Virus record (IMG/VR): IMGVR_UViG_3300035670_000028
Coordinates: 1 to 64,000 of that record
Origin: a virus
Reading direction: 5' to 3' (one strand)
Length of the DNA stretch: 64,000 nucleotides
A program made the position numbers and the translations under genes. How positions within the stretch are numbered: position 1 is the stretch's first letter; each line of letters begins with the position of its first letter. Below the pieces are notes generated by a model. The model saw only the letters and a program-made list of their open reading frames with translations. It was not told where the DNA came from and did no database searches. Of this stretch, positions 1 through 63,332 are shown in pieces.

Positions 1-675
1 ACAGAATCTCAGCTTCGCAGGATCATCCGCCAGGAGGTTGGCAGGCTCACAGAGGTGGCAGCGCCCACCGCAGGAAAGCTTGCCGTCTTTGAGTTTATCT
101 ACCCTGATGAGGTCCTGCCCGATGGGCGGACCGTCCTGGACACGCTCAAGGAGGAGGCAGCCGCCAAGGGGCTCCCTGCACCAATTGGTCCTATTGCGAC
201 ATCGATCGGTAAGTACGTAATCATGGTGGGTCCTCGAAATGCGCTGAAGTCGATTGGGAGCAAGATTGATAGAGCATTTGGTGGCTACATCGTCGACTTT
301 ACGACGAGCAATGTCGAAAAGTACTTGGATGAGCACCAGAAACCCGAGGTCAAGAGGCCTCTCAACGCCGCGCTTAAGAAGCTCGGATGGACTCCTTCCG
401 CCCCTCTCACCGGCATGGCGAAGCTCGAATTCAGCGCGCTGCTCGCGACCGAGGACACGGACATGTCTGTCGAGGAGATGCAGGAGCTCGCCGCGCGTCT
501 GGGTGTGGAGGGCAAGCTGATTCGCGGAAGGAACAAGGGCGGAACATTCTCTGTGACCGGCCCCCGCCCCGCAGTCGAGAAGTTCGCCCTTGAGATGGAG
601 AACGCCTACTACGGCGGCGCGCAGTCTATCGACCAGGAATCGGGTCTCTTCTCGATGATCAAGGACGTCCGATAG
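1..675 (+). CDS. Leader-bearing putative head-internal protein (5' truncated by the window edge)
   Basis: Frame 1 is open from position 1 and reads TESQLRRIIRQEVGRLTEVAAP, continuing into ORF 55..675. The start lies upstream of the window. Confidence 0.75.
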   Translation, partial: TESQLRRIIRQEVGRLTEVAAPTAGKLAVFEFIYPDEVLPDGRTVLDTLKEEAAAKGLPAPIGPIATSIGKYVIMVGPRNALKSIGSKIDRAFGGYIVDFTTSNVEKYLDEHQKPEVKRPLNAALKKLGWTPSAPLTGMAKLEFSALLATEDTDMSVEEMQELAARLGVEGKLIRGRNKGGTFSVTGPRPAVEKFALEMENAYYGGAQSIDQESGLFSMIKDVR

Positions 676-701
676 GTCTAAGCGCTACAGGAAGGGTGGA
701 T

Positions 702-1910
702 ATGAGAATTACTGAGGGACAGCTTCGTACAATCATCCGCCAGGTGCTGTTTCGTCTCACAGAGACGTCAGCACCTAATCCAGATCATCTGTTTGAAGAT
801 CAAGACGTCTTTGGTCAGTCATTTAATGATCCGGATAAGCGTAAGTCCTTTCGAGTAAGTGATCCACCCGAAAAGAATACGTCAGAAGAACAAAAATTCA
901 TCAACAAGCTTAAGAAATGGTTCAACGGTCACTTGGTTGCTGGTAGCTTGAATAGCTTTGCTAGTGACATAACAGAGCTAATGCCAGTTATTAGATCAGG
1001 AATATATCCAGAGCTAACTCCTCCGTCTGGCAATGTCTATAGAGGCATGAAGTTGACACCAGATCAACTTAAGAGTTTCTTAGACTTAGAAGAGTTTACT
1101 ATCAAGGCCGGTAAATACAAAGTCATTGACAAGGGCGGTGTCTTGACACCCCAGCGAATAAAGTTTTACAAGCAAGGCAAGCCAATAAGCTCTTGGTCTA
1201 CTAGTGCCTCTGTGGCCGCAAACTTTTCAGATAAGTCTACAAATCCAAGTGTTGATGAAGCATCTCTTATGAGTGTGGTGTTTGTAGCTGACACTAGCGA
1301 TTCGTCTAACATGTTTTTTCTGAATCCAGACAATCTCGCAAGATCTTATTCGAAGCAGATGTCAAACTACAGCAATGAAAAAGAGGTCATAGCAGTTGGC
1401 CCTGTTAGGTTCAACAGCGTTGTTGTATACAGTAGCAGAGATGTGGTCGAGAGTGGATCTCCTGAATCTGAAAAAATGGAATTTTTGGAGTCTGTATTCA
1501 GAGACATCGTCAGCAGAATTGATGAAGCTATACAAGACAGGAAAACTAAGCTGTCTCAGGCGGCAAGCAAGCTCGGTCTAAAAAAACCATCAGATGGGCG
1601 CAAGATCAAGTACATTGGTAAAGACCGTGCGTTTGTCTCTATAGTAACCACTGCGGCAAATGGCATATCTGATATCATAGAAAGCGTTGCAACAGAATAC
1701 GGCATAAAGAAGCTCGAAAATTCTGGAAGTATTAGGCAGGAACTATTCTTCTTGCATGACTTTAGAGCTTCCGGCGAGTACAGAGATCTGAGCAGTCCTG
1801 CCAATATTACAAAGTTTCTAGGAGAAGAAATTAGAGCTATAATAGGTTTCAAAAGAGGATATGCTCCAAATCTTCAGACACTAGCCAAGAAGGCATCTGC
1901 AAAAAGATAA
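702..1910 (+). CDS. Leader-bearing putative ADP-ribosyltransferase (R-S-E type)
   Basis: MRITEGQLRTIIRQ..RLTE leader; ART-like motifs VYRG, SSWSTS and EKEVI. The gene body is AT-rich compared with its flanks. Confidence 0.7.
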   Translation: MRITEGQLRTIIRQVLFRLTETSAPNPDHLFEDQDVFGQSFNDPDKRKSFRVSDPPEKNTSEEQKFINKLKKWFNGHLVAGSLNSFASDITELMPVIRSGIYPELTPPSGNVYRGMKLTPDQLKSFLDLEEFTIKAGKYKVIDKGGVLTPQRIKFYKQGKPISSWSTSASVAANFSDKSTNPSVDEASLMSVVFVADTSDSSNMFFLNPDNLARSYSKQMSNYSNEKEVIAVGPVRFNSVVVYSSRDVVESGSPESEKMEFLESVFRDIVSRIDEAIQDRKTKLSQAASKLGLKKPSDGRKIKYIGKDRAFVSIVTTAANGISDIIESVATEYGIKKLENSGSIRQELFFLHDFRASGEYRDLSSPANITKFLGEEIRAIIGFKRGYAPNLQTLAKKASAKR

Positions 1911-1923
1911 GAGAGTGTTTTCT

Positions 1924-3063
1924 ATGAGAATCATTGAGAGCATCGGCACTGATTGGGACACCGCCATATCGAACTGGTTCTATGACCACCCCACCGGATT
2001 CTCAGACCGCGTCCTCGCAGTGCTCGAGGACAATGCCATGCACGCCTATAATGAGCTCATGCTGCTGGGATCGTGGGGTCCGAGGAACTGCACAGAGGCC
2101 TCTGAGGTGTGGAGGAAGATCTTCGCTGAGAATGGTATTAGGGCCAAAATTGTGAACGGATTCTTTGAGCCCGCGCACTCACCCGGCCAGGCATTCAGGG
2201 GCAGCTCGGACCACGTGTGGCTGGAGGTCGAGGGCGGCGTCTTCGATCCGACTGCCGCACAGTTCTCAAGCAACATCAGCCTCGCAGACTACTGGCTCGA
2301 TGAGGTGACGCCGGCGTACGACGCTCCTGGAGCGATTGTTGAGAAGGTCGACCCGGACGCGGCATTCGAAAAGTATCTCGATAGTCACTATGGCCTGGAT
2401 CCGTCTGAGATTCGCAAGGCCAAGCGCGACCTTGAGAAGCACGCTGAAGAGCCTCCCAGCGCTCCATTGGGAAGAGTTGCATTCGGTCCTGAGCGCTACC
2501 CACCCATATACGAGCCCAACACGAAGGAGGAGAAAGCCCTCCTCAATGCGCTCTGGCACCACTTTGAGGGCTACGAAATACTCAGCGCGAAGAACGCTGA
2601 GGCGATCAGGGGAATGATGAGGAAGGGGCGATATCCCTCTGTCTTTGTGCCGCCGCGCGTCACAACTGTCTATCGTGGCATGACTGTGAATCTCACCTGG
2701 CTCGCAAAGGCGCTCGGTGTGTCAGTGCGTGACCTCAAGCGCATAGGCAAGACGACGCGTCCGCATCCGGCCGAAATGTTCACCAAGGGAAAGACTGAGG
2801 TCAACTTTAAGTTTGTCCCTAGGAAGGGCGCCGCCTCCTGGTCTAAGTCTCACCGTGTTGCGCGAGGGTTTCTGTCATCCGACTACGACACCGCCCAGAT
2901 CATCTTGCACGCTGATGTGGCCGAGAATGAGGGCAGGCTCATGGACGCAACCGGCCTGTACGGGAAGGTTTCAGGATTCGGCGGATTCAAAGCTGAGAAA
3001 GAGGTCCTCGGCCTAGGCCCCATTCGAGTGCACATGATCGAGTGGGAGATCGAGTGGGAGTAG
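1924..3063 (+). CDS. Transglutaminase/papain-like domain fused to an ADP-ribosyltransferase-like domain
   Basis: N-terminal NC..HVW..FDPT (Cys-His-Asp pattern); C-terminal VYRG, ASWSKS and EKEVL. ATG at 1924 gives MRIIE. Confidence 0.65.
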   Translation: MRIIESIGTDWDTAISNWFYDHPTGFSDRVLAVLEDNAMHAYNELMLLGSWGPRNCTEASEVWRKIFAENGIRAKIVNGFFEPAHSPGQAFRGSSDHVWLEVEGGVFDPTAAQFSSNISLADYWLDEVTPAYDAPGAIVEKVDPDAAFEKYLDSHYGLDPSEIRKAKRDLEKHAEEPPSAPLGRVAFGPERYPPIYEPNTKEEKALLNALWHHFEGYEILSAKNAEAIRGMMRKGRYPSVFVPPRVTTVYRGMTVNLTWLAKALGVSVRDLKRIGKTTRPHPAEMFTKGKTEVNFKFVPRKGAASWSKSHRVARGFLSSDYDTAQIILHADVAENEGRLMDATGLYGKVSGFGGFKAEKEVLGLGPIRVHMIEWEIEWE

Positions 3064-3118
3064 TTTCAATGAGATCAGATCCCATCGTGTTTGGCCGGTC
3101 CTGTAGGCTCACAACTTG

Positions 3119-4074: not shown

Positions 4075-4084
4075 GGAGAAATAA

Positions 4085-7329: not shown

Positions 7330-10300
7330 ATGCCTGAACAGACATTTAGATCCCCCGGATTCTTTGAGCAGGAGATTGACCTGTCCGCTCGCGCCGGCAG
7401 CACTCTTGGAATACCGGCAGGAGTAATCGGCACATCAAAGAAGGGCCCTGCGTTCGTGCCTGTGACGATTGGAACATTTACTGATTTCGAGAATCGTTTC
7501 GGCACCCTCGATCCCGATCGCTTTGGACCTTATGCAGTCAATGAGTTCCTCAAGCATCGAAATGCTGTGACATTCGTGAGGGTCCTTGGCGCAGGAGCGA
7601 ACAGCACGGAGTCTGATCTCAACAACACGGAGACGATGGGAATCGTAAAGAGCGCAGGATTCGTCCTGTCAGCTTCAGCGACCGACTACTCTCCTGGCGC
7701 AGTTCAGTTCCTCTGCGCAAGCCAGTCACTCCAGTCTGGAGAGCTTGCAGGTTACCCTGTCTTCTCTGACAATCGCTCCTTCAATGAGAGAAGCACGACT
7801 CTCAACGACGCGAACCTCGTCCGCGCTGTGATATTCACAACGACAGGCTCTAGGATTGAGGTGCTTGACTACAATCAGTCTTATTCGGCACCTGCTGCTG
7901 GAGACTCTCTTGCTGATGTAGGAAATGGATCGATTGGTGAGCCCTACTTCAAGCTCGTAATTTCGTCATCTCAGGGCGCGTCCTTCTCCTATGATGAGCT
8001 AAATGCTGGAATAAGGATCCTCACAGCTTCGCTTAATCCATCGAGCAAGCACTACATCGCAAAGATTCTCAATACAAATCCTGACAAGTTCCAGGAGATG
8101 CAGCACCTCCTGTATGTCGACCTTCCTGTTGAGAACGAGCTTGCAACAGTCAAGTCTGTCGCAATCCTCTCAGGAACGAGCGGAACCACGACATCAGGCG
8201 GTGACAAGACGACACCCTACAGAAATCTATTCGGCAAGTTCAATACGCGTTACACGACTCCCAAGACGACTGCCATCATCTCACAGCCGTTCGGAACTGT
8301 TGAGTACGATCTCTTTCACTTTGAGACGATAAGCGATGGAGAAGCGACCAACGAGGAGTACAAGGTGTCGATTGCGAATATTCGCAAGTCGCTCGATCCT
8401 GCAAACGCGTATGGAACTTTCGATGTTCAGATACGTCGCTTCACAGATGTGGACACTCTGCCAGAGATTCTCGAGGTATATCCTGCTTGCAATCTCAATC
8501 CAAAGAGCGAGAATTACATTGCTCGAAAGATTGGAGACAAGAAGGTACACTTCAACTTTGATACGACTTCTGACACAGAGCAGCGCCTCATCGTTACAGG
8601 CAAGTACCCCAATCTGTCAACGAGAATTCGCGTCGTCATGAATCAGGCAGTTGAGAATCAGACGGTTCCCACCGACGCGCTGCCATTCGGTTTCAGAGGA
8701 ATTCCTGTCCTCAAGACATCTAACTCTCTCACAGACGATAGTCTTGTTGTGCTCTCAGACAGATTCGGTGTGAGCCTAGGTGATAGTGCAACATCTCGAC
8801 TCGGAGGCATAACAGCAGCAGTGACTCCGCTCTCTGCGTCCATTCTTCCTCCCCTTCCTCTTCGATTCAAGGTGACAAGAGGCGCTGTGAATGATGGAAC
8901 GTCAACAGCTATCTCTTTCATAGGAGATCCAGGCGACAACGAGCGCGCCGACAATCGTCTATACTGGGGTGTGAAGTTTGAGAGGCTTCCCCTAGAGGCC
9001 ACAGTCACAAATGCCGTGCTGAACTCTAACGTCTCTGATGTCGCCAATCCCCTTGTGAAGGGATATGCGAAGTTCCAGGGAATTGCAAAGCTTGACACAC
9101 TAGTGACAGGCGCAGCAGCAGACGAGTTCAACAACAATAAGTTCACACTGTCTCGTGTCGCTCTCTACAATCAGCTGCAGGGCGGCCAGATAACTGACGT
9201 GACAGGAACAGCGAGAGAGCACATGCTTGAGGCGTCCTACCTCAGAAATGGCACGCCTAGCGCAACTGACTACACCATAAACGACGCAGTTCTTGGTGCG
9301 AACAGAATCACAATGGCGACACTTGTTCACTCCGCGTCCTCTGTGTTCAACAGGTTCCAGGAGTTCAATAAGTTCACCACAATGTTCTACGGTGGTTTTG
9401 ATGGCGTGAACCTCCTTGATAGAGACAATCGTCTCCTCAACGATCGCGCGAGCTCCTCCGACACAGGTGGTAAGGCAGGTGACACGTATGCTGGAGGCCT
9501 AGGCCTTGCAGGAACAGCTGTTGCTGCGATGTCAGGCAAGGGCAAGGACAACAACGTTGTTGCCGCATACCAAGTTGCCACACGACTCATGACTGATGAG
9601 ATCTCTTCCAATGTCAACGTTCTTGCAATTCCAGGCATCAGAGATGTTCTCGTCACAGACTTTGCGCTGGATGCTGTAAAGAAGTATGGCATGGCCATCT
9701 ATCTCATGGATGTCCTAAACTATGACGTGGACTCAAACCGCCTCTTCGATGACTCCTCCGCCAAGCCGGATGTGAGAGAGACATCAGAGCAGTTCGATGC
9801 GAGAGCAATCAATAACAACTACGGCGCATCGTACTTCCCAGATGTCTTCCTTCGCGATAACGTTGCAAATCGTCCTGTGAAGGTACCCGCTTCGGTCGCA
9901 GCTATGGGAGCCCTTGCATTCAATGACAAGATTGCCTACCCATGGTTCGCACCCGCAGGATTCAATCGCGGTGCCCTCGCGGAGGTCTCAAACGTCGCGA
10001 CACGTCTTAATTCTGAGGACAGAGACGTTCTCTATGACAGCAGAATTAATCCCATCGCGACATTCCCAACCGGTGGATTCGTGATCTTTGGTCAGAAGAC
10101 ACTTCAGCAGGCGAAGTCTGCTCTCGATCGAGTCAATGTCCGTCGTCTTCTTCTCGAGGTCAAGCGTCTTGTCGCTGGCGTGGCAAAGCGGTTGCTCTTT
10201 GAGCAGAATGATGCCACAACTCGCGCCAAGTTCCTAAGTCAAGTGACACCTCTTCTTGCTCTAATACAGTCTCAGTCTGGCATTGAGCAGTTCCAGGTTG

Positions 10301-10440
10301 TCTGCGACGATACAAATAACACAACTCTTGACGTAGAGGCCAATAGAATGAATGGAAGAATCGTTCTTGTGCCAACACGTGTTGTAGAGTTCATCTCCAT
10401 CGACTTCATCATCACAAATAGCGGCGTGTCGTTCGAGTGA
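7330..10440 (+). CDS. Tail sheath protein 1
   Basis: SPGFFEQEID..KGPAFVP N-terminus; PWFAPAGFNRG, INPI, FGQKT and RVNVRRLL sheath motifs. Confidence 0.93.
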   Translation: MPEQTFRSPGFFEQEIDLSARAGSTLGIPAGVIGTSKKGPAFVPVTIGTFTDFENRFGTLDPDRFGPYAVNEFLKHRNAVTFVRVLGAGANSTESDLNNTETMGIVKSAGFVLSASATDYSPGAVQFLCASQSLQSGELAGYPVFSDNRSFNERSTTLNDANLVRAVIFTTTGSRIEVLDYNQSYSAPAAGDSLADVGNGSIGEPYFKLVISSSQGASFSYDELNAGIRILTASLNPSSKHYIAKILNTNPDKFQEMQHLLYVDLPVENELATVKSVAILSGTSGTTTSGGDKTTPYRNLFGKFNTRYTTPKTTAIISQPFGTVEYDLFHFETISDGEATNEEYKVSIANIRKSLDPANAYGTFDVQIRRFTDVDTLPEILEVYPACNLNPKSENYIARKIGDKKVHFNFDTTSDTEQRLIVTGKYPNLSTRIRVVMNQAVENQTVPTDALPFGFRGIPVLKTSNSLTDDSLVVLSDRFGVSLGDSATSRLGGITAAVTPLSASILPPLPLRFKVTRGAVNDGTSTAISFIGDPGDNERADNRLYWGVKFERLPLEATVTNAVLNSNVSDVANPLVKGYAKFQGIAKLDTLVTGAAADEFNNNKFTLSRVALYNQLQGGQITDVTGTAREHMLEASYLRNGTPSATDYTINDAVLGANRITMATLVHSASSVFNRFQEFNKFTTMFYGGFDGVNLLDRDNRLLNDRASSSDTGGKAGDTYAGGLGLAGTAVAAMSGKGKDNNVVAAYQVATRLMTDEISSNVNVLAIPGIRDVLVTDFALDAVKKYGMAIYLMDVLNYDVDSNRLFDDSSAKPDVRETSEQFDARAINNNYGASYFPDVFLRDNVANRPVKVPASVAAMGALAFNDKIAYPWFAPAGFNRGALAEVSNVATRLNSEDRDVLYDSRINPIATFPTGGFVIFGQKTLQQAKSALDRVNVRRLLLEVKRLVAGVAKRLLFEQNDATTRAKFLSQVTPLLALIQSQSGIEQFQVVCDDTNNTTLDVEANRMNGRIVLVPTRVVEFISIDFIITNSGVSFE

Positions 10441-10483: not shown

Positions 10484-13400
10484 ATGGCTGAGCTGACATT
10501 CAAGAGTCCAGGCGTGAGCACAAGGGAGATCGATCTCAGTGGTCCTGCGAACGTTCTGCCACAGGGAACTCCTGCTGGTGTTATTGGCACCGCGCAGAAG
10601 GGCCGCGCATTCGTTCCGATCACAGTAGCAACATATCAGGACTTCGTCGCTGAGTTCGGTGCTACTGATGGTGAGAAGTTTGGACCACTTGCAATGTATG
10701 AGTGGTTCCAAAACGCCCGGGCAGGAACATATGTGAGGACCCTGGGTGTGGGTGATGGAACAAAGCGGCTAGTTTCAGGAATCAATGCTGGCAAAGTGAA
10801 CTACGCAGGATTCGTTGTAGGCGCTCAGCAGGTTCAAGTAAACGGTCAGATTGGCAGCAATTCGTACGCCGGCATCGATAAAGCAGGTTACAAGGGAGAG
10901 CTTGGAAGGACCTACTTCCTAGGCGCTTTCATGTCAGGAACTTCTGCCTCTCCCATTCTCTCAGACACCAATGTGCAGAAGACATCAGCAGCTGTTCCGA
11001 TTGTTCGCGGCGTTCTAATGGCTGCATCTGGCGTCATTGTCTCACTATCTTCATCCTACTCAACAAATAACGATCCAAGCGACATCTATAAGTCATCTGG
11101 CTCATTCACGTCCAACACTGTGATTGGCGACGCTGGAGCTCACCTAGGCACTGTCAATATCAACAGTGGCAGGTCTGACTTCGTTCTCTTTATGAACGGC
11201 CTCGTTCCCACGGCCCAGTTCTCCAACGTTATAACAGCATCTTTCGATCCCGCCTCCGCTCAGTACTTCCCGAAGGTTCTCAACACTGATCCTTATAGAC
11301 TTGAGTCCGCGGGACACTACCTGTACACAAGCTGGGATGTACATCCATCCTACGCAGTTGTTACCTCGTCGGGCGTTCAGACAGGAACTCCTGCAGGAAC
11401 AGGTCTGGTTGAGGCAGCATTCCTTCTCACGGGAACACAGACATACAACAGCGGTGCCCTCACACTGCCCAATTACGAAGGCTTCGAGTCAAGGTACGCT
11501 ACCGCATTCTCACCCTTCGTAGTTTCTCAGAAGTTTGGTGGCAAGCCTCAGAATCTCTTTAGACTACACTCACTTGATGACGGTTCCTCCGGAAACAGCC
11601 AGTTCAAGATCACAATCGAGAACATCGCTGCCTCCAGAAATGAGAACAGCCCCTACGGTACCTTCGACCTTGTAATTCGGTCCTTTGGCGACACGGATGA
11701 GGATAAGGTCGCGCTGGAGACGTTCCGAGCCCTCTCTCTCGATCCCAACTCCGATCGTTACATCGCACGTGTGGTGGGCGACCAGCACATCTACTACGAC
11801 TTCGATCAGCGGAGAGGCGCTCAGAAGCTTCGCGTCGAGGGGTCCTACCCGAACTCCTCCAAGTACGTGAGAGTGGAAGTGGCGTCCGATGTTGAGAGGC
11901 AGATAATTGACGCGTCAGCGCTTCCAGTCGGATTCCGCGGACCACACTTCCTCCTCACATCCGGAACAAACGCGTCGGGCGCAGCAGCACTCCACGGCTA
12001 TGTGACAGGAACGCTGGATCACGGAGTCGATGTCGCAGACCTTCAGGCCGCGCAGGTCGCACCAATCCCATACCGACTCAACATCGCGAAGGGAACAGGC
12101 CTCAGCAAGAAGGTCAATGCTTCCCTCACGTGGGGCGTTCAGTTTGAGGTTCAGGACAATCTCGCTGATCCGAACGGCACTGTGGGTCCGGACGCATCCC
12201 GTGCATCCTACACCAAGTACTTCCCGATGTACCACACCAACTTCCGCAATGTGATGCTCGGAGACACTGTGGGCCTCGCTGACGACGGTGGCATGGTCCT
12301 TGACTCAGATAAGTTCCAGAACAACCTCTTCTCTCTGGAGAACGTTCAGATTGCGACGGGGTCCACTGATAAGCCCGATGAGAAGGCGTGGGATATTGCC
12401 TCCTACCGAAGGAACGGAGTGAAGCTCACAGCACTCACTGCCTCTGATGGACGCACATTCGACGCAAACAACACGCGCTTCCTCGACCCTATCAAGGACT
12501 TCGACCACGTTCCCTCGAGGAAGTACCTCAAGTTCTCCTTCTTCATGCAGGGAGGATTCGACGGTGTCAACATCTTCGATCGCCAGAAGTCCAAGCTCAC
12601 TGATATCGCGGTTCGCCGTGAGATCGACAATATCGCGCAGGGCGGAATTGAGGGACCCACAGTCAACGCCTACAGGAAGGCGATCGATGTTATGTCCGAG
12701 AAGTCCGACGTCGACATTCAGCTCCTCGCCATCCCAGGAATTCGACACTACAGCGTGATGGACTACGCGGTCGACGCTGTGGAGAGCCGCTTCGACGCCC
12801 TCCTCCTGATGGACGTCGAGGAGCGCGATCAGTTCAACGAGCCCATGACAGGCTCCTCCGTGCAGATGCCCTCCGTCTTCAACACGGTCAACCGCATGGC
12901 GGACCGCAACATGGACACCTCCTTCGCTGCGGCGTACTACCCCGACGTCGTGATGCAGGATCCAGGCACCCTCACAAACATTGTGGTTCCTCCCACGGTC
13001 CCCGTCCTCGGCGCCTTCGCGCTGAACGACACAGTCGCCTACCCCTGGTTCGCTCCCGCTGGCTTCACACGCGGCGCGATGCCACGGGTCCTAGAGACTC
13101 AGGTGAAGCTCAACAGGGCGAACCTCGATGACCTCTACGAGGTGGACATCAACCCGCTCACATCCTTCGCCGACTCCAACGGTGTCGTGGTGTTCGGACA
13201 GAAGACCCTCCTCGCTGCACAGAGCGCGCTTGATCGGGTCAACGTTCGCCGCCTCCTCATTGAGATCCGCCGGCGCGTGCGCCGCGTCGCGAACACGATC
13301 CTCTTCGAGCCTAATCGTGAGTCCACCCTCTCCCGCTTCTCCGCTGCCGTGACACCCATCATGCAGCAGATTCAGGCGCAGCGCGGCCTCGATCGGTACA

Positions 13401-13543
13401 AGGTGCAGATCGACACCACAACGACCACCGCGGCCGACGTGGAGAACAACACGATCCGCGGCAAGATCTACCTCCAGCCCACGCGGTCCCTGGAGTTCGT
13501 CTCCCTCGACTTCGTGGTCACAAATCAGGGCGCGACAGTTTGA
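10484..13543 (+). CDS. Tail sheath protein 2
   Basis: SPGVSTREID; PWFAPAGFTRG, FGQKT and RVNVRRLL motifs; preceded by ATACCTA at 10444. Confidence 0.93.
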   Translation: MAELTFKSPGVSTREIDLSGPANVLPQGTPAGVIGTAQKGRAFVPITVATYQDFVAEFGATDGEKFGPLAMYEWFQNARAGTYVRTLGVGDGTKRLVSGINAGKVNYAGFVVGAQQVQVNGQIGSNSYAGIDKAGYKGELGRTYFLGAFMSGTSASPILSDTNVQKTSAAVPIVRGVLMAASGVIVSLSSSYSTNNDPSDIYKSSGSFTSNTVIGDAGAHLGTVNINSGRSDFVLFMNGLVPTAQFSNVITASFDPASAQYFPKVLNTDPYRLESAGHYLYTSWDVHPSYAVVTSSGVQTGTPAGTGLVEAAFLLTGTQTYNSGALTLPNYEGFESRYATAFSPFVVSQKFGGKPQNLFRLHSLDDGSSGNSQFKITIENIAASRNENSPYGTFDLVIRSFGDTDEDKVALETFRALSLDPNSDRYIARVVGDQHIYYDFDQRRGAQKLRVEGSYPNSSKYVRVEVASDVERQIIDASALPVGFRGPHFLLTSGTNASGAAALHGYVTGTLDHGVDVADLQAAQVAPIPYRLNIAKGTGLSKKVNASLTWGVQFEVQDNLADPNGTVGPDASRASYTKYFPMYHTNFRNVMLGDTVGLADDGGMVLDSDKFQNNLFSLENVQIATGSTDKPDEKAWDIASYRRNGVKLTALTASDGRTFDANNTRFLDPIKDFDHVPSRKYLKFSFFMQGGFDGVNIFDRQKSKLTDIAVRREIDNIAQGGIEGPTVNAYRKAIDVMSEKSDVDIQLLAIPGIRHYSVMDYAVDAVESRFDALLLMDVEERDQFNEPMTGSSVQMPSVFNTVNRMADRNMDTSFAAAYYPDVVMQDPGTLTNIVVPPTVPVLGAFALNDTVAYPWFAPAGFTRGAMPRVLETQVKLNRANLDDLYEVDINPLTSFADSNGVVVFGQKTLLAAQSALDRVNVRRLLIEIRRRVRRVANTILFEPNRESTLSRFSAAVTPIMQQIQAQRGLDRYKVQIDTTTTTAADVENNTIRGKIYLQPTRSLEFVSLDFVVTNQGATV

Positions 13544-13621: not shown

Positions 13622-15274
13622 TTAGACATCTAGCGTTAGAAGAAGATTAGGGCATCCCCAGATCTTTACTACGCCGTGCAAGTCTGCGACCTGCTGCTCG
13701 GTGAGATTCTGTTCTGAGTCAGCTCGGATCTTAAACCTATCAATCCTTACGCGCCCATCCGTCCACCAGAATCGGTTTGGAGTCGTGGCCACGTGCTGCC
13801 ATCCTGACTTGATGTATCCATCACCGCTGCCCCACCGAGTGTCGACATATGTCATGAGCTTCGAGGCTCCCACCTCTTTCGCATGCTTTCTTGCAGCGGA
13901 TGTGAGTCGTCCGAGTCCACCCACAACATTGGTCGCGAGCCGTGTGCTGTACCTGGCTATCTCGAGGTGGTCAACAAACTTCTTGTGAAGAGGCCTCCGA
14001 AGGGACATGCACGCCACTAGATTACCGTCTCTATCCTGCAACCCAAAGCATGCAGAGGACTTCACGTCTCCGTCTATGTGAGTCTCGTTGAAGAACGCCC
14101 TCTTCTGCGCAGGATCGACTCTAACAACTGTGCACTCCCTAGCTCCGATTGACCGCCTGGACATACCTGTCTTGTGAGCAATAATCGACTCACATATTGC
14201 CCGCTTATCCCTCCACTCATCCTCGAACACGTGAATGAGCCGCACACCGACCTCCTGACACATCCGTGATTTATTAGAGTGGTAGTTCTTACTCTTGAAC
14301 AGCGCGCTGTGAAAGTAGAGTCCATTGTACTCTATGCCAATCCGTTTCTCAGGAATGATGACGTCTATCTCGTACGGGGAGATGATGGATCTGTCAGACA
14401 TGGAGGTCTTAAGCCCCATGAACCTGATATACCTCTCAACCTCCACCTGCGCCTGGGATCCTGCCGGAGAGCAAGTGCCGCATCGACCGGATGATGCCTC
14501 TATCAGGCTCTTCACAGAAACATTGTCACACTTTACACACCGAAACTTAAGATTCTTGACCCGGTCACGCACGTAGTCTGCTGGATCGCTCTCGAGCACT
14601 AGCGTGCCCTCTGACGCTGACAGACGCTTGAGGATCTCATCAGTAGAGAGACGCTTAAGTGCGTCCAATCGACTGCGCACCTCCTCACGTCTAAGGGTGC
14701 GAGACACTGTCTGACTCATCGACAACACCCTCTCGTCTGTCTCCTTTGTGAGCCCTTTGGCCCACGGCACGTACCGACCGGAAGTGTATCCTTCTATCAG
14801 GTTATTACGGCACTTCTCGATCGTCTCAGACGTCTCGTGCGTGCTGCCCTTATTCCACGCAGACCGCTCTCCTGACTCGAACTGCCGAGACACTGTCTTG
14901 CTCCTCGTCTGCGCTCCGCGAGCGAGAGCCTCAGAAGTCTCTTTATTGAGGCCTCGAGACCATCCCACCCGGCCTGTAAGCTTCGCTCTTCTCTCTGATG
15001 ATATTCTACCCGCCTCATCTTCTCCGTAGGCAGAGTAGATGCTCCCATTATGTCCTAGGACGAACTTTGAGTAGCCCTTGTTCCACCCATAGAATGTAGG
15101 AACCTCATCGCACGCGTTGCACCCGCACCGAGGCTTTAGTCCGTTCAGCTTGAGAGCGACATAGGCTGCCTCCACGCTCTCGAACCCGTGCGCAGACATG
15201 TGCTCCTCAAAAGGCGCCGCCCTTCCAGACGTGTACTCACACATGGGGCACGCAAAACGCTTGCTAGATTTCAT
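13622..15274 (-). CDS. Hef-like/PD-(D/E)XK homing endonuclease with Zn fingers, NUMOD-like repeats and a C-terminal GNAT-like domain
   Basis: EIDV..IGIEYNGLYFHS and IHVFEDEW; WNKG/WAKG repeats; CxxC motifs. The only credible minus-strand gene; MKSSKR start chosen. Confidence 0.7.
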   Translation of the reverse strand: MKSSKRFACPMCEYTSGRAAPFEEHMSAHGFESVEAAYVALKLNGLKPRCGCNACDEVPTFYGWNKGYSKFVLGHNGSIYSAYGEDEAGRISSERRAKLTGRVGWSRGLNKETSEALARGAQTRSKTVSRQFESGERSAWNKGSTHETSETIEKCRNNLIEGYTSGRYVPWAKGLTKETDERVLSMSQTVSRTLRREEVRSRLDALKRLSTDEILKRLSASEGTLVLESDPADYVRDRVKNLKFRCVKCDNVSVKSLIEASSGRCGTCSPAGSQAQVEVERYIRFMGLKTSMSDRSIISPYEIDVIIPEKRIGIEYNGLYFHSALFKSKNYHSNKSRMCQEVGVRLIHVFEDEWRDKRAICESIIAHKTGMSRRSIGARECTVVRVDPAQKRAFFNETHIDGDVKSSACFGLQDRDGNLVACMSLRRPLHKKFVDHLEIARYSTRLATNVVGGLGRLTSAARKHAKEVGASKLMTYVDTRWGSGDGYIKSGWQHVATTPNRFWWTDGRVRIDRFKIRADSEQNLTEQQVADLHGVVKIWGCPNLLLTLDV

Positions 15275-15281
15275 AAACCTA

Positions 15282-15308
15282 ACTATACATGCACCTACCT
15301 CGTTTACA
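15282..15308 (-). promoter_or_regulatory. Sigma70-like promoter (TGTAAA-N15-TATAGT)
   Basis: The -10 box ends 7 nt before the ATG at 15274. Confidence 0.45.
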
Positions 15309-15337
15309 TCATATGGCTGTGACAGGAGGCGCAATAG

Positions 15338-16850: not shown

Positions 16851-16857
16851 ATACTTA
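16851..16857 (+). promoter_or_regulatory. ATACTTA putative late promoter
   Basis: Upstream of leader gene 16901. Confidence 0.55.
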
Positions 16858-16900: not shown

Positions 16901-17251
16901 ATGAGGATCACAGAGGGACAGCTTCGCAGGATCATTCGCCAGGAGAGGGCGAGGCTTAATGAATCATACGCGTCTGAGGGAACCGGTTCAACGCTCCTCG
17001 ACTTCGCGCATGCGTACGCTTCTCTCGGGCGCGCAGTCTCCGAGCAGGTCGAGTCGGTCGTTAGCGCTCACATCAACAGCAACGGAGACGTCAACGACGT
17101 GGTGTTCCAGGATGCAGTGTACGGCGTCAACCCCAACGCGATGGCAATGGCGCTTGAGAAGCTTGGACCCATCCTCAGGCGTGGCTACCTCGGTGACGAG
17201 GGTGACTACATCCTCGAGGCGCTGGACGCTGCAGCCCACACCGGCGGGTGA
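16901..17251 (+). CDS. Leader-bearing putative head-internal protein
   Basis: MRITEGQLRRIIRQERARLNE leader; AGGAG RBS. Confidence 0.8.
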   Translation: MRITEGQLRRIIRQERARLNESYASEGTGSTLLDFAHAYASLGRAVSEQVESVVSAHINSNGDVNDVVFQDAVYGVNPNAMAMALEKLGPILRRGYLGDEGDYILEALDAAAHTGG

Positions 17252-17733
17252 GACACGTGAGGTCCACGCATCCCATAAAAAAGTATGGTGGATCCCGCGA
17301 GGGCCTCATAATTCCGCGTCGAAAGGATGAGGCGCTACTTCGTCAATTAGTCAGAGAGGTTCTTATTTCTGAGGCGCCGGAATCCAAAGATGAGAAGCCT
17401 CCTCCTCCACAGACGGGCCCTGATGTGAAGGGGAGCCCTGTTGCGCAGGCTGCTGAGAAGCGCCTGGACGCATTTCCGTCCATAAACTCTGTTCTCAAGA
17501 ACATCAGCACTGCCAAGGACCTCCGTGCGCTCGTTCAGAACATCCTCGACAAAGTGGGTGAGAGCGGCAAGATAACACAGGCCGAGATGCAGGGTGCTCT
17601 ATCCAAGACGCTTGCAGCGTCAAGGAAGGCCGCAGTCGAGAAGAAGAAGCAGGAAAAGGAGGCTGCCGACCGCGAGGCAGCTGCTGCTGAAGCCCAATCG
17701 CCATCTGAAACATCTCCTGCAAGGTCATCTTAG
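17248..17733 (+). CDS. Hypothetical protein with leader-like segment (start uncertain)
   Basis: Contains EALLRQLVREVLISE near its N-terminus. Confidence 0.55.
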   Translation: MRHVRSTHPIKKYGGSREGLIIPRRKDEALLRQLVREVLISEAPESKDEKPPPPQTGPDVKGSPVAQAAEKRLDAFPSINSVLKNISTAKDLRALVQNILDKVGESGKITQAEMQGALSKTLAASRKAAVEKKKQEKEAADREAAAAEAQSPSETSPARSS

Positions 17734-33215: not shown

Positions 33216-33749
33216 ATGGCAAATGAAGAGTTTATAAGACAGCAGATACGAAGAATACTTCTTGAAGCTAACGCTGAAAGTGATGACAGCGAGTCTCCTC
33301 CTGCGCCTAAATCAAAGGCAGAGCCAGCGCCTCAAAGAGGCCAGGTCCAGAAGGGAAAGGTTGGACGCGGGAGAGTTTCAGGTGGTGTAAAGGAAGCTGA
33401 GGCCCTCGCAAATAGCAATCCCGGTGAGCTCATGAGAAAGCTGAAAATATCAGCGGTGACAGGATCAGACGAGGAGAAAGTCGAAAAGATTATGAAACAG
33501 GCTGTGAGCACGCTTAAGTCCACCAAGGGCCTCGAGCAGGCCTACAGCGGAGTCTCACTCGTCAGAGAGCAAGACACGGGCAGTGTCTACGTCAAAATTA
33601 GCCCAAACAAGTTGTCAGCAAGAAATGCTCTCATCTACATGAAGCATGTTCTAGTTGGCGCTTTCAATGCGGGTGTGCTCTCACTTGACAATGATGTGAT
33701 TCCCACCTATGAGGACGACAAGGCACTTATAAAATTTGCCAGTTCATGA
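33216..33749 (+). CDS. Protein with leader variant
   Basis: MANEEFIRQQIRRILLE N-terminus. Confidence 0.65.
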   Translation: MANEEFIRQQIRRILLEANAESDDSESPPAPKSKAEPAPQRGQVQKGKVGRGRVSGGVKEAEALANSNPGELMRKLKISAVTGSDEEKVEKIMKQAVSTLKSTKGLEQAYSGVSLVREQDTGSVYVKISPNKLSARNALIYMKHVLVGAFNAGVLSLDNDVIPTYEDDKALIKFASS

Positions 33750-34319: not shown

Positions 34320-34338
34320 TCGCTCCATATTTACTAGC

Positions 34339-34638
34339 ATGAACGAGACGCAGCTTCGGGAAGCCATCAGAGCAATACTTGAGAGCGACGAGGACAAGAA
34401 AAAGTCAAAGAAGAAGAAAAATCTTCTTGTTGAGCCTGACAAGGTGGAGAAGTCCAAGAAGGACGCCGAGGCCAGCCATGAAGTTTCTGCAGGCGGAGTG
34501 CAAGGTGTTGCAGTTCCCCTCGGCGCAGGACCTCACTATCCCGCACCTGACTCTCCTGCTGTGAAGAGAATTAGAAAGCAGATCGACGTTGTCGGTCGTG
34601 CTTTTGGTGGCGCAAAACCCACCAAGAAGAAGAAGTAA
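34339..34638 (+). CDS. Small basic protein with leader variant
   Basis: MNETQLREAIRAILE, Lys-rich; ATATTTA (34327) ends 5 nt before the ATG. Confidence 0.65.
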   Translation: MNETQLREAIRAILESDEDKKKSKKKKNLLVEPDKVEKSKKDAEASHEVSAGGVQGVAVPLGAGPHYPAPDSPAVKRIRKQIDVVGRAFGGAKPTKKKK

Positions 34639-61036: not shown

Positions 61037-61076
61037 GTTTTTTTTATGCCCAGCACGCTCTTTTGAACGAAAGCTA

Positions 61077-61083
61077 ATACTTA
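61077..61083 (+). promoter_or_regulatory. ATACTTA putative late promoter
   Basis: Upstream of leader gene 61141. Confidence 0.55.
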
Positions 61084-61140
61084 TAAGCATCTCCAGCGCG
61101 AGAAGTCAAACTAAACCGCTAATTTTGTAAGGAGCAAGCT

Positions 61141-61503
61141 ATGAGGATCACAGAGGGACAGCTTCGTAGGATTATTCGACAGGAAGTGAAACGGCTTCAC
61201 GAAATGCCAGCTCGCCGCGGCGGTTCAACGTTGCGCGGCTTTAACAAAGTTTTTCTTGACGGCGACCCAGAATTTGCTGATTTTACAATGTCAGTTGCAA
61301 AAATGCTTGGTAAGCCTGTAACAGCGGTCAAGATGGTTTCTACTGAGGACGACAGCGACTATTATGATATGTACATTGAACAAATACAGGGTGAAACGCC
61401 TATAAGCGTGCCAGGATTTCCGGGTCAAGCTTCACAAGGGACACTTCAAGGAATGCCTGTAGTATTAACAAATGACATGGGTGCTGGCTTCATTTTCATG
61501 TGA
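61141..61503 (+). CDS. Leader-bearing putative head-internal protein
   Basis: MRITEGQLRRIIRQEVKRLHE; TAAGGAG RBS; AT-rich body. Confidence 0.8.
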   Translation: MRITEGQLRRIIRQEVKRLHEMPARRGGSTLRGFNKVFLDGDPEFADFTMSVAKMLGKPVTAVKMVSTEDDSDYYDMYIEQIQGETPISVPGFPGQASQGTLQGMPVVLTNDMGAGFIFM

Positions 61504-61532
61504 TTCTCTAGTCTCCACAAGTAAAATTGCAG

Positions 61533-61561
61533 TGTAAATCTGACCGCACGCAGCCTATAAT
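61533..61561 (+). promoter_or_regulatory. Sigma70-like promoter (TGTAAA-N17-TATAAT), apparently leaderless
   Basis: ATG at 61568 lies 6 nt after the -10 box. Confidence 0.55.
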
Positions 61562-61567
61562 GGTTGT

Positions 61568-61870
61568 ATGCGGTCAGACTGTTTAACAGACTTACCGAAG
61601 ACAGGTGACCTCGTTCGCGGCACTCGAGAGTTTGGGTCCTGCATCGAGGCCCAATTGTGGAACGAGAACTTTGTGATGTCGTACCCAGACGAGCCTTGGG
61701 ACACTGCGACTATTGCAGTGTATATTGAGCCGGTCTCCCGAGAGGAGCTTGGTGAGATTAGTCCAAGGGTTCCTCACAGTGGCCTTGGTCCGTTCCACCG
61801 GATCTTCTACAAGAATCGGGTGTGGCTTGTGTACGGCGATGATTCACTGGAAGCTGTGAAAGGAGAGTGA
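61568..61870 (+). CDS. Small GDLV-motif (KOW/SH3-like) protein
   Basis: PKTGDLVRG. Confidence 0.55.
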   Translation: MRSDCLTDLPKTGDLVRGTREFGSCIEAQLWNENFVMSYPDEPWDTATIAVYIEPVSREELGEISPRVPHSGLGPFHRIFYKNRVWLVYGDDSLEAVKGE

Positions 61871-62217
61871 GCGAGATGAGCGAGATTGAGAGTGCTGAGG
61901 CACCGGTGGAGAAGAGAATTACACAGGCCCTGATCGATAATGCCTTCAGCTGCCTCGATGGCCACGGGCGGCTAACCTATGCTAGGGATGAGTGCTGCAC
62001 GATCCAGCAGGTTCTGCGGGAGGCCCACGGTGTGCACCTCTCCCTGAACGAGTGCCGGCGCTTCTGGGAGTGGAGATCGGGGCTGTGGGATGCTTCCTTC
62101 CTCACGCTGGGAGGGGCGGATGAACCGGGCACCCGGAAGGAGATCCTCGAGTTCTTCACCGAGTGGCTGGATGAGCTGGATATCTGGGAGTGGAACACTG
62201 CGGAAGAGGAGGATTGA
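61867..62217 (+). CDS. Hypothetical protein
   Basis: AAGGAG RBS; GTGA overlap. Confidence 0.6.
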   Translation: MSEMSEIESAEAPVEKRITQALIDNAFSCLDGHGRLTYARDECCTIQQVLREAHGVHLSLNECRRFWEWRSGLWDASFLTLGGADEPGTRKEILEFFTEWLDELDIWEWNTAEEED

Positions 62218-62218
62218 G

Positions 62219-62677
62219 ATGATCAAGAAGAGGAAGGGCTGGTTCAGGCACATTAAGCCGAGCTCCCCGGTGTGCCCGAGGAAGCCGGAGAGGATGCTGA
62301 AGCGCGAGAGGCTAACGATCCTGTATGAACACTGCGGGAGCAGGATGAACCTATCAGAGATTCCCCTCCCCGAGGGGAAGGGCCTGGCTGATATCCAGCT
62401 GAGCGCTAGCGGGGATGAGGATGGTGATATCACCCTCGAGTTCTACACCCGGGAGGAGTACGAGGAGGAGAACCCCCACTACGAGCGCGAGATGAAGCAC
62501 TACAAGGCAGTGTACGCCAAGTACGAGCAGCTGAGGGATGAGTTCAAGGCCGAGCTAGCTGAGTGGAAGGCGTGGAATGCCGAGCAGGATGCTGCTGATG
62601 TGAAGGAGCGCCTCGAGGCTGCAGAGAGGCTGCTCCGCCAGCACGGCCGGCTCCCTGGAGGCCCGAGTGTGGGCTGA
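62219..62677 (+). CDS. Hypothetical coiled-coil protein
   Basis: GAGGAGG RBS before MIKKRK. Confidence 0.6.
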   Translation: MIKKRKGWFRHIKPSSPVCPRKPERMLKRERLTILYEHCGSRMNLSEIPLPEGKGLADIQLSASGDEDGDITLEFYTREEYEEENPHYEREMKHYKAVYAKYEQLRDEFKAELAEWKAWNAEQDAADVKERLEAAERLLRQHGRLPGGPSVG

Positions 62678-62969
62678 TCCTGATCGGGCCATCCTAACCT
62701 ACCCACTCTTTGCGGGAGGCACCCTGGAGTTCGGGTGGGCCCGCTCCGGTGGCGGCATGAGCGTGGGCACGAATCCCCTCATGGCCCGCGTGCTAGTGCC
62801 ACCCTCTGGCGGCGAGTATCCCTCCGGCTGGTTCGTGGTGCAGGGCAAGCGCTCGCTCATCAAGGTGAAGGCCGAGTTCGATACCTACGGTGGTTTCATC
62901 CCAGATTGGCTCCGCGCAGATATGTTCGAGCACCACTACAACCTCCTCAGGATAGGCACCAGTGCGTGA
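62667..62969 (+). CDS. Hypothetical protein
   Basis: GGAGG RBS before the GTG start. Confidence 0.5.
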   Translation: MWADPDRAILTYPLFAGGTLEFGWARSGGGMSVGTNPLMARVLVPPSGGEYPSGWFVVQGKRSLIKVKAEFDTYGGFIPDWLRADMFEHHYNLLRIGTSA

Positions 62970-63051
62970 TCTGGCTCGCGAGCTGAGGAGGGGAGATCTC
63001 GTGCGGATCACGCGGTGCATGGTTAAGTTGCAGCGTGGGGATTCAACCTAA
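62962..63051 (+). pseudogene. Truncated copy of the GDLV gene start
   Basis: VRDLARELRRGDLVRITR... stops after 29 codons; matches the start of 63422..63712. Confidence 0.5.
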
Positions 63052-63057
63052 TACTTA
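63051..63057 (+). promoter_or_regulatory. ATACTTA putative late promoter, apparently leaderless
   Basis: Ends 5 nt before the ATG at 63063; no RBS. Confidence 0.55.
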
Positions 63058-63062
63058 TCACC

Positions 63063-63332
63063 ATGCGAATCACACTCAACGAGCTCCGCCTGATCATCAG
63101 GGAGGCGCTGGCTCAGCCCATGGAGTTCAAGCAGGCCGAGGAGCTCTACTCTGAACTGATCATGGGTGCCATGAGGGATAACCGCGGGAATGTTTCCGCC
63201 ATGCAGGCCGCCATGCGTGCCATCCCCGATCAGGTGCTCAAGCTCACCGGGTGGAGTGTGGAGGAGATCCAGGCAGGAACCGAGCGGGAAACCCGCGAGA
63301 GGATCGCGGCCATGAAGCAGGGCCGGCCCTGA
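63063..63332 (+). CDS. Leader-bearing small protein
   Basis: MRITLNELRLIIREAL. Confidence 0.7.
   Translation: MRITLNELRLIIREALAQPMEFKQAEELYSELIMGAMRDNRGNVSAMQAAMRAIPDQVLKLTGWSVEEIQAGTERETRERIAAMKQGRP

What the first reader, a model, noticed from the sequence alone, without database searches (positions are those of the whole stretch)
1..63332. Shared N-terminal leader on unrelated cargo: candidate capsid-targeting and effector-delivery system
Seen: a leader of consensus MRITEGQLRRIIRQE-x(2-3)-L-x-E starts genes at <1, 702, 16901, 61141 and 63063. Looser variants occur at 17248 (internal), 33216 and 34339. Downstream of the leader the proteins share nothing; they include an ART enzyme, acidic and basic small proteins, and others of unknown fold. 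Most leaders end in (L/I)-x-E (RLTE, RLNE, RLHE, LISE, ILLE, AILE). Four of these genes (16901, 34339, 61141, 63063) have their own ATA(C/T)TTA motif, three of them amid replication or variable-region genes. Established: T4 internal proteins carry a short capsid-targeting sequence that is removed by prohead protease gp21, which cuts after (I/L)-x-E. Inference: this leader is a portable amphipathic packaging tag that loads a variable set of effectors into the head for injection.
Basis: partly seen in the sequence, partly recalled or inferred. Interest (0 to 1): 0.88.

Follow-up and report, generated by a model that had tools for sequence, protein, structure and literature searches.

The report
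Shared head-targeting-like leader on phage proteins
A large uncultured T4-like water phage starts about 17-19 unrelated late proteins with the same short helical tag; it probably loads them into the phage head like T4's capsid-targeting sequence, which would give a way to find proteins that phages inject, but this is untested.

Summary
The window is the first 64 kb of a 147-kb IMG/VR contig, about 44% of a T4-like jumbo phage.

**What was found**
- The tag M-R-I-T-x-x-Q-L-R-x-I-I-R-(E/Q) heads genes at <1, 702, 16901, 61141 and 63063, and four more outside the window.
- Looser L-R-x-x-I-R-x-x-L-x-E forms bring the total to 17-19 genes. Their cargo parts fall into 18 BLAST clusters.
- Codons differ between copies, so selection acts on the peptide.
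- The tag starts hundreds of proteins in viral metagenomes. One complete 284-kb relative has 35.

**Support for a T4-like capsid-targeting propeptide**
- All three near-complete tag-bearing relatives encode a gp21-type prohead protease.
- ATAYTTA is the clade's late promoter. It precedes 9 of 17 tag genes against 19 of 159 others.
- Conserved small proteins beside the protease carry the same helix.
- 84% of 233 tags have (L/I)-x-E ending at residue 14, and the capsid protein's inferred maturation site is L-(K/R)-E.
- One cargo is an R-S-ExE ADP-ribosyltransferase, like T4 Alt in role.

Packaging, cleavage and injection are not shown. I rate it a new variant of a known kind, confidence about 0.55. 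Another first-stage note in this scan raised the same idea on an overlapping window of this genome.

The parts
1..675 (+). Leader gene 1 (224 aa read), cut at the contig start. The leader TESQLRRIIRQEVGRLTE lacks only its first three residues. Cargo is of unknown fold.
   Evidence: The homologue in L034 starts MRITESQLRRIIRQEVGRLTE.
702..1910 (+). Leader (residues 1-22, ending RLTE), a low-confidence linker, an R-S-ExE ADP-ribosyltransferase domain (about residues 33-250) and a helical C-terminal domain.
   Evidence: invariant Y102, R114, W165 and E228; S164 and E226 conserved in at least 90%; pLDDT 89.6, leader helix 5-20, linker pLDDT 53; best fold matches are cholera/LT A1 and Vis toxin, probability up to 0.98 but E only 0.02.
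1915..3063 (+). Paralogous ADP-ribosyltransferase (YRGM / SWSKS / EKEV) with a weak transglutaminase-like N-terminal region. It has no canonical leader; it starts MFSMRIIES.
   Evidence: same BLAST cluster as the 702 protein.
16851..16857 (+). ATACTTA late-type promoter core, 50 nt before gene 16901.
16901..17251 (+). Leader gene (116 aa), MRITEGQLRRIIRQERARLNE. It lies between the tail tube and baseplate hub genes.
   Evidence: (E 8.8e-14).
17248..17733 (+). ORF with an internal leader-like helix (ALLRQLVREVLISE, about 17320-17361).
33216..33749 (+). Loose-leader gene (177 aa), ..FIRQQIRRILLE. It lies among replication genes.
34327..34333 (+). ATATTTA late-type promoter core just before gene 34339.
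34339..34638 (+). Loose-leader gene (99 aa), MNETQLREAIRAILE, with lysine-rich cargo.
61077..61083 (+). ATACTTA late-type promoter core, 64 nt before gene 61141.
   Evidence: A GTGYAA-type promoter follows the gene at 61532.
61141..61503 (+). Leader gene (120 aa), MRITEGQLRRIIRQEVKRLHE.
   Evidence: E 5.9e-13.
63051..63057 (+). ATACTTA late-type promoter core, 12 nt before gene 63063.
63063..63332 (+). Leader gene (89 aa), MRITLNELRLIIRE.
   Evidence: E 1.7e-11.

Best explanation
**Proposed mechanism.** The leader is a short N-terminal amphipathic helix: a T-x-x-Q capping box followed by a hydrophobic face at L8, I11 and I12. I propose that it works like the T4 capsid-targeting sequence (CTS).
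- It makes late-expressed proteins co-assemble with the prohead scaffolding core. That core is built from proteins that carry the same kind of helix.
- It is then removed by the gp21-type prohead protease at I-(R/K)-E14 and/or a second L-x-E at residues 18-22.
- The cargo stays in the head with the DNA and probably enters the host at infection. The cargo includes ADP-ribosyltransferases and many small proteins of unknown fold.

**Shown here.** The tag exists, is conserved as a peptide, is virus-specific and modular, sits on late genes, and occurs in a lineage with a gp21 homologue and with tag-like head-module proteins.

**Inferred only.** Binding to the core, cleavage, retention in the virion, and injection.
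For: 1. **Real, modular, peptide-level tag.**
2. **Widespread at the exact N-terminus.**
   - 42 IMG/VR loci with GC 34-60% carry it at residue 1.
   - 396 metagenomic proteins match, 105 of the 120 listed at residue 1.
   - Only one MAG among 185,579 prokaryote species has it.
3. **The lineage is T4-like.**
   - Peptidase_S77 is found in 10 of 31 tag-bearing contigs, including 3 of 3 that are at least 90% complete. The other contigs are fragments.
   - The protease is 34% identical to T4 gp21.
4. **Late expression.**
   - ATAYTTA occurs 34 times on the + strand and 3 on the - strand.
   - It precedes the tail sheath, tail tube and other structural genes here, and the portal, scaffold and family S genes in relatives.
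   - It precedes 9 of 17 tag genes against 19 of 159 others (odds ratio 8.3, p = 2e-4). None of the GTGYAA-type promoters precedes a tag gene.
5. **Head-module proteins beside gp21 carry the helix.**
   - Family M starts MAKITKRMLKGIVKECLVEILSEG.
   - Family S has KITPNFLKRIVVEEARKLQAE.
   - The scaffold has ITPKIRHLIEQEL.
   - hhalign gives P = 0.0018 and 0.001 in the correct register.
   - In complete G024, a 331-aa ORF 1.7 kb from gp21 starts MKRITEQQIRKVIREE (E 4.6e-5).
   - Cultured phage immuto has MKKSQ(L/I).. on three genes and on one head-module gene.
6. **Cleavage-type sites.**
   - (L/I)-x-E ends at residue 14 in 84% of 233 tags, with a second peak at residues 18-22.
   - Background is 15% per window. 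Of the tags without E14, 73% have the later site.
   - T4 gp23's cleavage Glu65 is an invariant column, with L/I/V at P3, in the clade's capsid proteins (L-K/R-E).
7. **Alt-like cargo.** One cargo is an R-S-ExE ART. T4 Alt is a packaged ART with a cleaved propeptide (PMC9026906).
8. **Arrays.** Tandem tag genes in G004 recall the diverse T-even internal proteins that share only a CTS (PMC3012670).
Against: - There is no experimental or proteomic datum for any member.
- The window's contig lacks the head module and the protease.
- Co-occurrence with gp21 is a clade trait, not an independent association.
- Similarity of the tag to the head-module proteins is weak by profile measures: P about 1e-3, and the leader HMM scores them near 0 bits.
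- I-R-E14 is part of the helix motif, so its 'cleavage site' reading is not independent of helix conservation.
- The tag is about 1.5-2 times longer than the T4 CTS and shows no significant sequence similarity to it.
- Some copies are internal.
- Thirty-five packaged species in one phage would be unprecedented for a T4-like head.
Confidence: 0.55

Rival explanations
1. The helix is a shared docking or oligomerisation module for late proteins. It binds some other common hub, such as phage DNA, the membrane-bound assembly site, a chaperonin or host RNA polymerase, or it drives hetero-oligomers among family members. It does not load them into the head.
For: - The helix is basic and amphipathic with heptad-like spacing.
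- Internal copies and tandem double copies exist.
- A GroEL gene lies 3.4 kb from the nearest tag gene of one G004 array.
- The AF2 model shows the helix detached from the ART domain.
Against: - It does not explain why conserved head-module proteins next to gp21 carry the helix.
- It does not explain the positional (L/I)-x-E peaks.
- It does not explain the exact N-terminal placement in 105 of 120 proteins.
Confidence: 0.2
2. This is one fast-evolving paralogous gene family. The N-terminus is simply the only part that still looks alike, kept for folding, stability or recombination-driven cassette exchange, and it has no addressing function.
For: - There are tandem arrays of small genes.
- A large single-linkage cargo cluster holds 94 of 244 sequences.
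- Double leaders look like products of recombination between neighbouring genes.
Against: - The cargo includes clearly unrelated folds and sizes (66-426 aa; ART, EF-hand, PG-binding, ART-PolyVal).
- The same ART cargo occurs with different lineage-specific N-terminal helices, which indicates modularity.
- The tag is preserved across GC 34-60%.
Confidence: 0.12
3. The conserved element acts at the nucleic-acid level, for example as a translation-initiation region, a regulatory RNA site or a recombination site. The peptide would be incidental.
For: It always spans the start codon and is often close to the ATAYTTA promoter.
Against: - Synonymous codons differ freely between copies (Arg as AGA, AGG, CGA, CGT or CGC; Ile as ATT, ATC or ATA).
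- The peptide is kept in genomes from 34 to 60% GC.
- Internal protein copies exist.
Confidence: 0.03
4. The tag is a secretion or membrane-targeting signal.
For: It is N-terminal with twin arginines in many copies (Q-L-R-R-I-I).
Against: - No hydrophobic h-region follows. The next residues are R/K-E-E and charged linkers.
- The cargo is mostly soluble and charged.
Confidence: 0.03

Closest known systems
T4 capsid targeting sequence (CTS) of internal proteins IPI/IPII/IPIII and the Alt propeptide, removed by prohead protease gp21
   Same: - It is a short N-terminal tag shared by otherwise unrelated, fast-evolving proteins.
- The tag ends in (I/L)-x-E.
- The phage encodes a gp21 (Peptidase_S77) homologue.
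- The genes are late.
- One cargo is an ADP-ribosyltransferase.
- T4 facts come from PMC9026906, PMC3012670 and PMC8442874 (CTS = MKTYQEFIAE).
   Different: - The tag is 14-23 residues, not 7-10, with no significant sequence similarity to the T4 CTS.
- It is strongly basic.
- There are up to 35 tagged genes per genome, against about 4-5 in T4.
- A few copies are internal or tandem.
- The ART is not a detectable sequence homologue of Alt, ModA or ModB.
- Packaging and cleavage are untested.
Propeptides of inner-body and ejection proteins of phiKZ, 201phi2-1 and SPN3US, cut after Glu by gp175/gp245
   Same: These are large heads with many internal proteins. Their N-terminal propeptides carry redundant x-x-E sites and are removed by a gp21-related protease (PMC9026906, PMC10052503).
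   Different: - Those propeptides are long and share no leader consensus.
- The phages are Chimalliviridae-like, not this T4-like clade.
T4 prohead core proteins gp67 and gp68
   Same: They are small, acidic, helical proteins encoded beside gp21. Families S and M hold comparable positions: next to the protease gene, though after it rather than before it, with similar size and charge.
   Different: Homology is not demonstrable: hhalign of family S against T4 gp67 gives P = 0.043.
Encapsulin cargo-loading peptides
   Same: A short portable peptide addresses diverse cargo to the interior of an HK97-fold shell. This comparison rests on my own knowledge.
   Different: - They are usually C-terminal and are not cleaved.
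- They bind the shell protein directly.
- The system is cellular, and no DNA is packaged.

Membership tests
T4-type capsid targeting sequence (CTS) system | Tag at the extreme N-terminus of the precursor | tested here: met
   The motif starts at residue 1 in 105 of the 120 listed hits, at all five window positions and in all 42 IMG/VR loci. A minority of copies are internal.
T4-type capsid targeting sequence (CTS) system | Tag ends in a gp21 site, (L/I)-x-E | tested here: met
   84% of 233 tags have it ending at residue 14, with a second peak at residues 18-22 against a 15% background. The reading is not independent of the helix motif.
T4-type capsid targeting sequence (CTS) system | The phage encodes a gp21 / Peptidase_S77 prohead protease | tested here: met
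   It is present in 3 of 3 near-complete relatives and in 10 of 31 tag-bearing contigs overall, and is 34% identical to T4 gp21. It is absent from the window's own 44%-complete contig.
T4-type capsid targeting sequence (CTS) system | Sequence similarity to the T4 CTS (MKTYQEFIAE) | tested here: not met
   No meaningful similarity was found. There is only a shared style: M-K/R, a T-x-x-(E/Q) cap, a hydrophobic pair and I-x-E. The leader profile against T4 gp67 gives P = 0.2.
T4-type capsid targeting sequence (CTS) system | [quoted passage not shown] | not testable with these tools
   This needs virion proteomics or a reporter fusion.
T4-type capsid targeting sequence (CTS) system | The tag is removed by the prohead protease | not testable with these tools
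   This needs N-terminal mapping of virion proteins or an in vitro cleavage assay.
T4-type capsid targeting sequence (CTS) system | Late expression | tested here: met
   An ATAYTTA late-type promoter lies within 110 nt upstream of 9 of 17 tag genes against 19 of 159 others (p = 2e-4). No GTGYAA-type promoter precedes a tag gene. Timing is inferred from promoter type, not measured.
R-S-E (cholera-toxin-like) ADP-ribosyltransferases (cargo of gene 702) | Arg, Ser-x-Ser and Glu-x-Glu catalytic motifs on an ART fold | tested here: met
   Y102, R114, W165 and E228 are invariant, and S164 and E226 are at least 90% conserved, in 66 homologues. The AF2 model has pLDDT 89.6. The best fold matches are cholera/LT A1 and Vis toxin: probability up to 0.98, but E is only 0.02. 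There is no Pfam or PDB sequence match.

The most novel reading that the evidence does not exclude
A large clade of aquatic T4-like jumbo phages uses one portable leader of 15-23 residues to load dozens of fast-evolving proteins into the head for injection (up to 35 per genome). This would be the largest packaged-effector repertoire known. A simple sequence handle, M-(K/R)-I-T-x-x-Q-L-R-x-I-I-(K/R)-E, would then pull thousands of candidate injected host-takeover and anti-defence proteins out of metagenomes.
Probability: 0.4. Interest if true: 0.8.

Novelty: new variant of a known kind. Interest (0 to 1): 0.66.

Why it matters
Proteins injected with phage DNA act before any phage gene is expressed. 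They are prime candidates for counter-defence and host takeover, but they are hard to recognise from sequence.

If this tag is a head-addressing signal, it labels such proteins directly in uncultured phages: hundreds were seen here, almost all without any known domain. It would also offer a second, longer natural targeting peptide for loading foreign proteins into large phage heads. Finally, it would show that the T4 CTS principle is ancient and can expand from a handful of cargo proteins to dozens.

Tried and rejected
- **Complex prediction.** I folded a tag peptide with the scaffold N-terminus, family M and family S from G004. The verdict was 'no answer' (score 0.00), so it counts neither for nor against binding.
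- **tblastn of the 30-aa leader against GenBank phages.** It found nothing useful, because the query is too short for that database size.
- **Pfam and PHROGs scans.** Scans of 19 tag proteins and 10 head-module proteins gave no family matches, apart from a sub-threshold CCDC47 match on the 17248 ORF.
- **PDB sequence searches for the ART.** Nothing relevant was found.
- **Atlas look-ups of the two largest unknown cargoes.** They gave only weak leads.
- **Circular junction.** The contig end and start read through in frame (..FVD|TESQ..). I rejected this as the true start because a homologue starts MRITESQ and IMG/VR classes the contig as a linear fragment.
- **Family S as the gp67 homologue.** This was not supported (P = 0.043).
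- **Literature search for the motif strings.** No papers were found.
- **Proteomics of phage immuto.** None was found.
Full report
**What the window is.** The 64-kb window is the first part of a single 147,186-bp IMG/VR virus contig. The contig has GC 54% and is classed as linear, with CheckV completeness about 44%. Nearly all genes are on the + strand. Recognisable genes include:
- two tail sheath paralogues of about 1,000 aa, a tail tube, a baseplate hub and a head-tail adaptor;
- ribonucleotide reductase, a single-strand DNA-binding protein and a RecA-like recombinase.

The contig is therefore a fragment of a large myovirus. It holds no prohead protease, portal, scaffold or major capsid gene. 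The head module lies in the missing part.

- Gene 1 is cut by the contig start. A near-identical homologue elsewhere begins MRITESQLRRIIRQEVGRLTE.
- A profile built from the five copies finds further N-terminal copies at 65362, 65670, 88829 and 121315. Looser L-R-x-x-I-R-x-x-L-x-E forms lie at 33216, 34339, 91660, 92999, 94272, 118807, 119208, 119902 and 141925. A few copies are truly internal: inside the 17248 ORF, and at 83177, 96783 and 120817.
- The core pattern occurs 10 times in the first 25 residues of 217 ORFs, against 0.25 in shuffles.
- Copies differ freely at synonymous positions, so the peptide is under selection, not the DNA or RNA.
- Downstream of the tag, the 19 proteins fall into 18 BLAST clusters. 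Only the two ADP-ribosyltransferases at 702 and 1915 are paralogues.

**The tag is widespread and virus-specific.**
- A degenerate DNA pattern for M-R-I-T-x-x-Q-L-R-x-I-I-R finds 42 loci in IMG/VR, from genomes of 34-60% GC. Each sits at the start of an ORF and each has different cargo.
- The same pattern finds three loci in 185,579 prokaryote genomes. Two lie on contigs of one MAG and carry three true copies. The third is a chance match.
- A profile search of 5.8 billion proteins gives 396 hits with consensus M(K/R)ITKRQLRRIIREE. The motif starts at residue 1 in 105 of the 120 listed. Almost none has a Pfam domain. The exceptions are EF-hand, ART-PolyVal, PG_binding_1 and DUF3175.
- One complete 284-kb relative (G004) has 35 profile hits. 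Most lie in two tandem arrays of small genes that all begin MKITKRQLRRIIKEEKAKL...
- Ordinary cyanomyoviruses (S-SRM01, MED4-213), RM378 and Mel-JY01 have none.
- Flavobacterium phage immuto has a local variant, MKKSQLR.IIKE.

**Tests of the capsid-targeting reading.**

*Protease.* Peptidase_S77 (T4 gp21) is present in 10 of 31 tag-bearing contigs, including all three that are at least 90% complete. The rest are 5-50% fragments. The protease is 34% identical to T4 gp21 over 143 residues and aligns over its GE.NHP and SSRG.GS blocks.

*Timing.* ATAYTTA occurs 34 times on the + strand and 3 times on the - strand. It is almost always 12-75 nt before a start codon.
- In this contig it precedes the tail sheath, tail tube and other large structural genes.
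- In relatives it precedes the portal, scaffold and family S genes. I therefore read it as the clade's late promoter.
- It lies within 110 nt upstream of 9 of 17 tag genes against 19 of 159 other genes (odds ratio 8.3, p = 2e-4).
- None of the 15 GTGYAA-N-TAnnnT promoters precedes a tag gene.
- Genes 61141 and 63063 each have their own late promoter although they sit among small genes served by the other promoter class.

*Head-module proteins.* In five relatives the gene order is portal, a 270-285-aa protein, gp21, a 134-aa protein, family M, family S, two small proteins, scaffold and capsid protein.
- Family M starts M-x-K-(I/L/M)-(T/S)-(K/R)-x-x-L-K-x-(I/L)-(I/V)-K-E-C-L-V-E-I-L.
- Family S carries (K/R)(I/L)TPxxL(K/R)(K/R)(I/L)V.EE(K/R).K(L/M).E.
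- The scaffold has (I/L/V/M)TP.I(R/Q)..(I/V)E near residue 35.
- Profile-profile alignment puts the tag on both families in the correct register, with P = 0.0018 and 0.001. This is modest, and the plain leader HMM scores these proteins near zero.
- In complete G024 one of only two strong tag genes is a 331-aa ORF 1.7 kb downstream of gp21. Three neighbouring ORFs have looser versions.

*Cleavage sites.*
- Among 233 non-redundant tags, (L/I)-x-E ends at residue 14 in 84%. A second peak sums to 48% at residues 18-22. Background is 15% per 15-residue window.
- Of the 37 tags without the first site, 73% have the later one. That group includes all the IIRQ-type leaders of this window (RLTE, RLNE, RLHE).
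- The known T4 gp23 cleavage follows L-T-E65. The propeptide length of 65 comes from PMC9026906 and the sequence.
- In an alignment with the clade's capsid proteins, Glu65 is an invariant column. P3 is L, I or V, giving L-(K/R)-E in the five relatives. The protease's T4-like specificity is therefore probably conserved.

*Cargo.*
- The 702 protein has 162 homologues. Y102, R114, W165 and E228 are invariant, and S164 and E226 are conserved in at least 90%.
- The AlphaFold model is confident (pLDDT 89.6). The tag forms a separate helix (residues 5-20) followed by a low-confidence linker.
- The best fold matches are R-S-E ADP-ribosyltransferases, with weak E-values of about 0.02.
- Many homologues carry either this tag or a different amphipathic N-terminal helix that often ends in L-x-E before a conserved PEA..G.Y.F block. 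The cargo is thus combined with lineage-specific leaders.
- T4 Alt is likewise a packaged, processed ADP-ribosyltransferase (PMC9026906). This ART is not a detectable sequence relative of Alt, ModA or ModB.

**What is known.** In T4, the first 10 residues of IPIII (MKTYQEFIAE, PMC8442874) suffice for incorporation into the prohead core.
- Residues 4 and 7 matter for targeting, and residues 8 and 10 for processing by gp21.
- The T-even internal proteins are diverse defence-related proteins that share only the CTS (PMC9026906, PMC3012670).
- The present system has the same logic, but the tag is longer, basic and unrelated in sequence, and the scale is far larger.
- No paper in the library contains the motif strings.

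**Limits.**
- No datum shows packaging, cleavage or injection.
- The link to gp21 is a clade trait.
- I-R-E14 is part of the helix motif itself.
- Some copies are internal.
- A complex prediction gave no answer.

I put the head-targeting reading at about 0.55. The stronger claim of an injected effector arsenal is at about 0.4. The main rival is a shared docking or oligomerisation helix for another hub, at about 0.2.

**Verdict.** If true, it is a new variant of the T4 CTS principle in a widespread clade of uncultured T4-like jumbo phages, and it can be tested directly in cultured phage immuto.

Noticed in passing
window 7330-10440 and 10484-13543; 13622-15334 (-): Two adjacent tail sheath paralogues of about 1,000 aa each (PHROG tail sheath, E 1e-57 to 1e-59). 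A 570-aa HNH homing-endonuclease gene on the opposite strand lies between them and the tail tube gene.
   Followed up: no
whole contig G000; e.g. window 61532: A second promoter class, GTG(C/T)AA-N15-19-TAnnnT, occurs 15 times on the + strand and once on the - strand. It precedes non-leader genes only.
   Followed up: partly
L061 (G004:268000-284429), L062 (G004:182000-192000), L063 (G004:1-6000): Arrays of about 30 tandem small genes all begin MKITKRQLRRIIKEEKAKL... One array runs to the contig end and continues at its start. A GroEL-like gene (537 aa) and a sigma-like gene (230 aa) lie 2.4-3.4 kb from the nearest tag gene.
   Followed up: partly
P0022, P0041: Some metagenomic proteins carry two leaders in tandem. 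In P0022 the second keeps its own Met (..GEH-MRITESQLRRIIRQE..). This looks like a deletion or recombination between neighbouring leader genes.
   Followed up: no
L066, L068 (MAG JBBAUR01, Bdellovibrionota): The only prokaryote assembly with true leader genes is one MAG, with three copies on two contigs. No Peptidase_S77 was found in it. These may be mis-binned phage contigs.
   Followed up: partly
window 1915-3063: The second ADP-ribosyltransferase has a weak transglutaminase/papain-like N-terminal region (Pfam E 0.0087, below cut-off). It starts MFSMRIIES, which could be a very short I-I-E propeptide.
   Followed up: no
L065 (T4 gene 67) versus family S (L043:8753-9046): T4 gp67 has ..IDLIKEEKIAIARNFLIEGEEPED.., which resembles ..LLRKIVLEERAKLMEVLETGKEHPED.. 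of family S. hhalign gives only P = 0.043.
   Followed up: yes
L049 (Microcystis phage Mel-JY01, 22183-22410): A ribosomal protein S21 gene is annotated inside the head module, between the prohead protease and the capsid gene.
   Followed up: no
G000 105105-105500: This is the only head-module homologue in the window's contig. It is a 131-aa protein similar to the 134-aa protein that follows gp21 in relatives, and it has its own ATACTTA promoter. It stands apart from any other head gene.
   Followed up: partly
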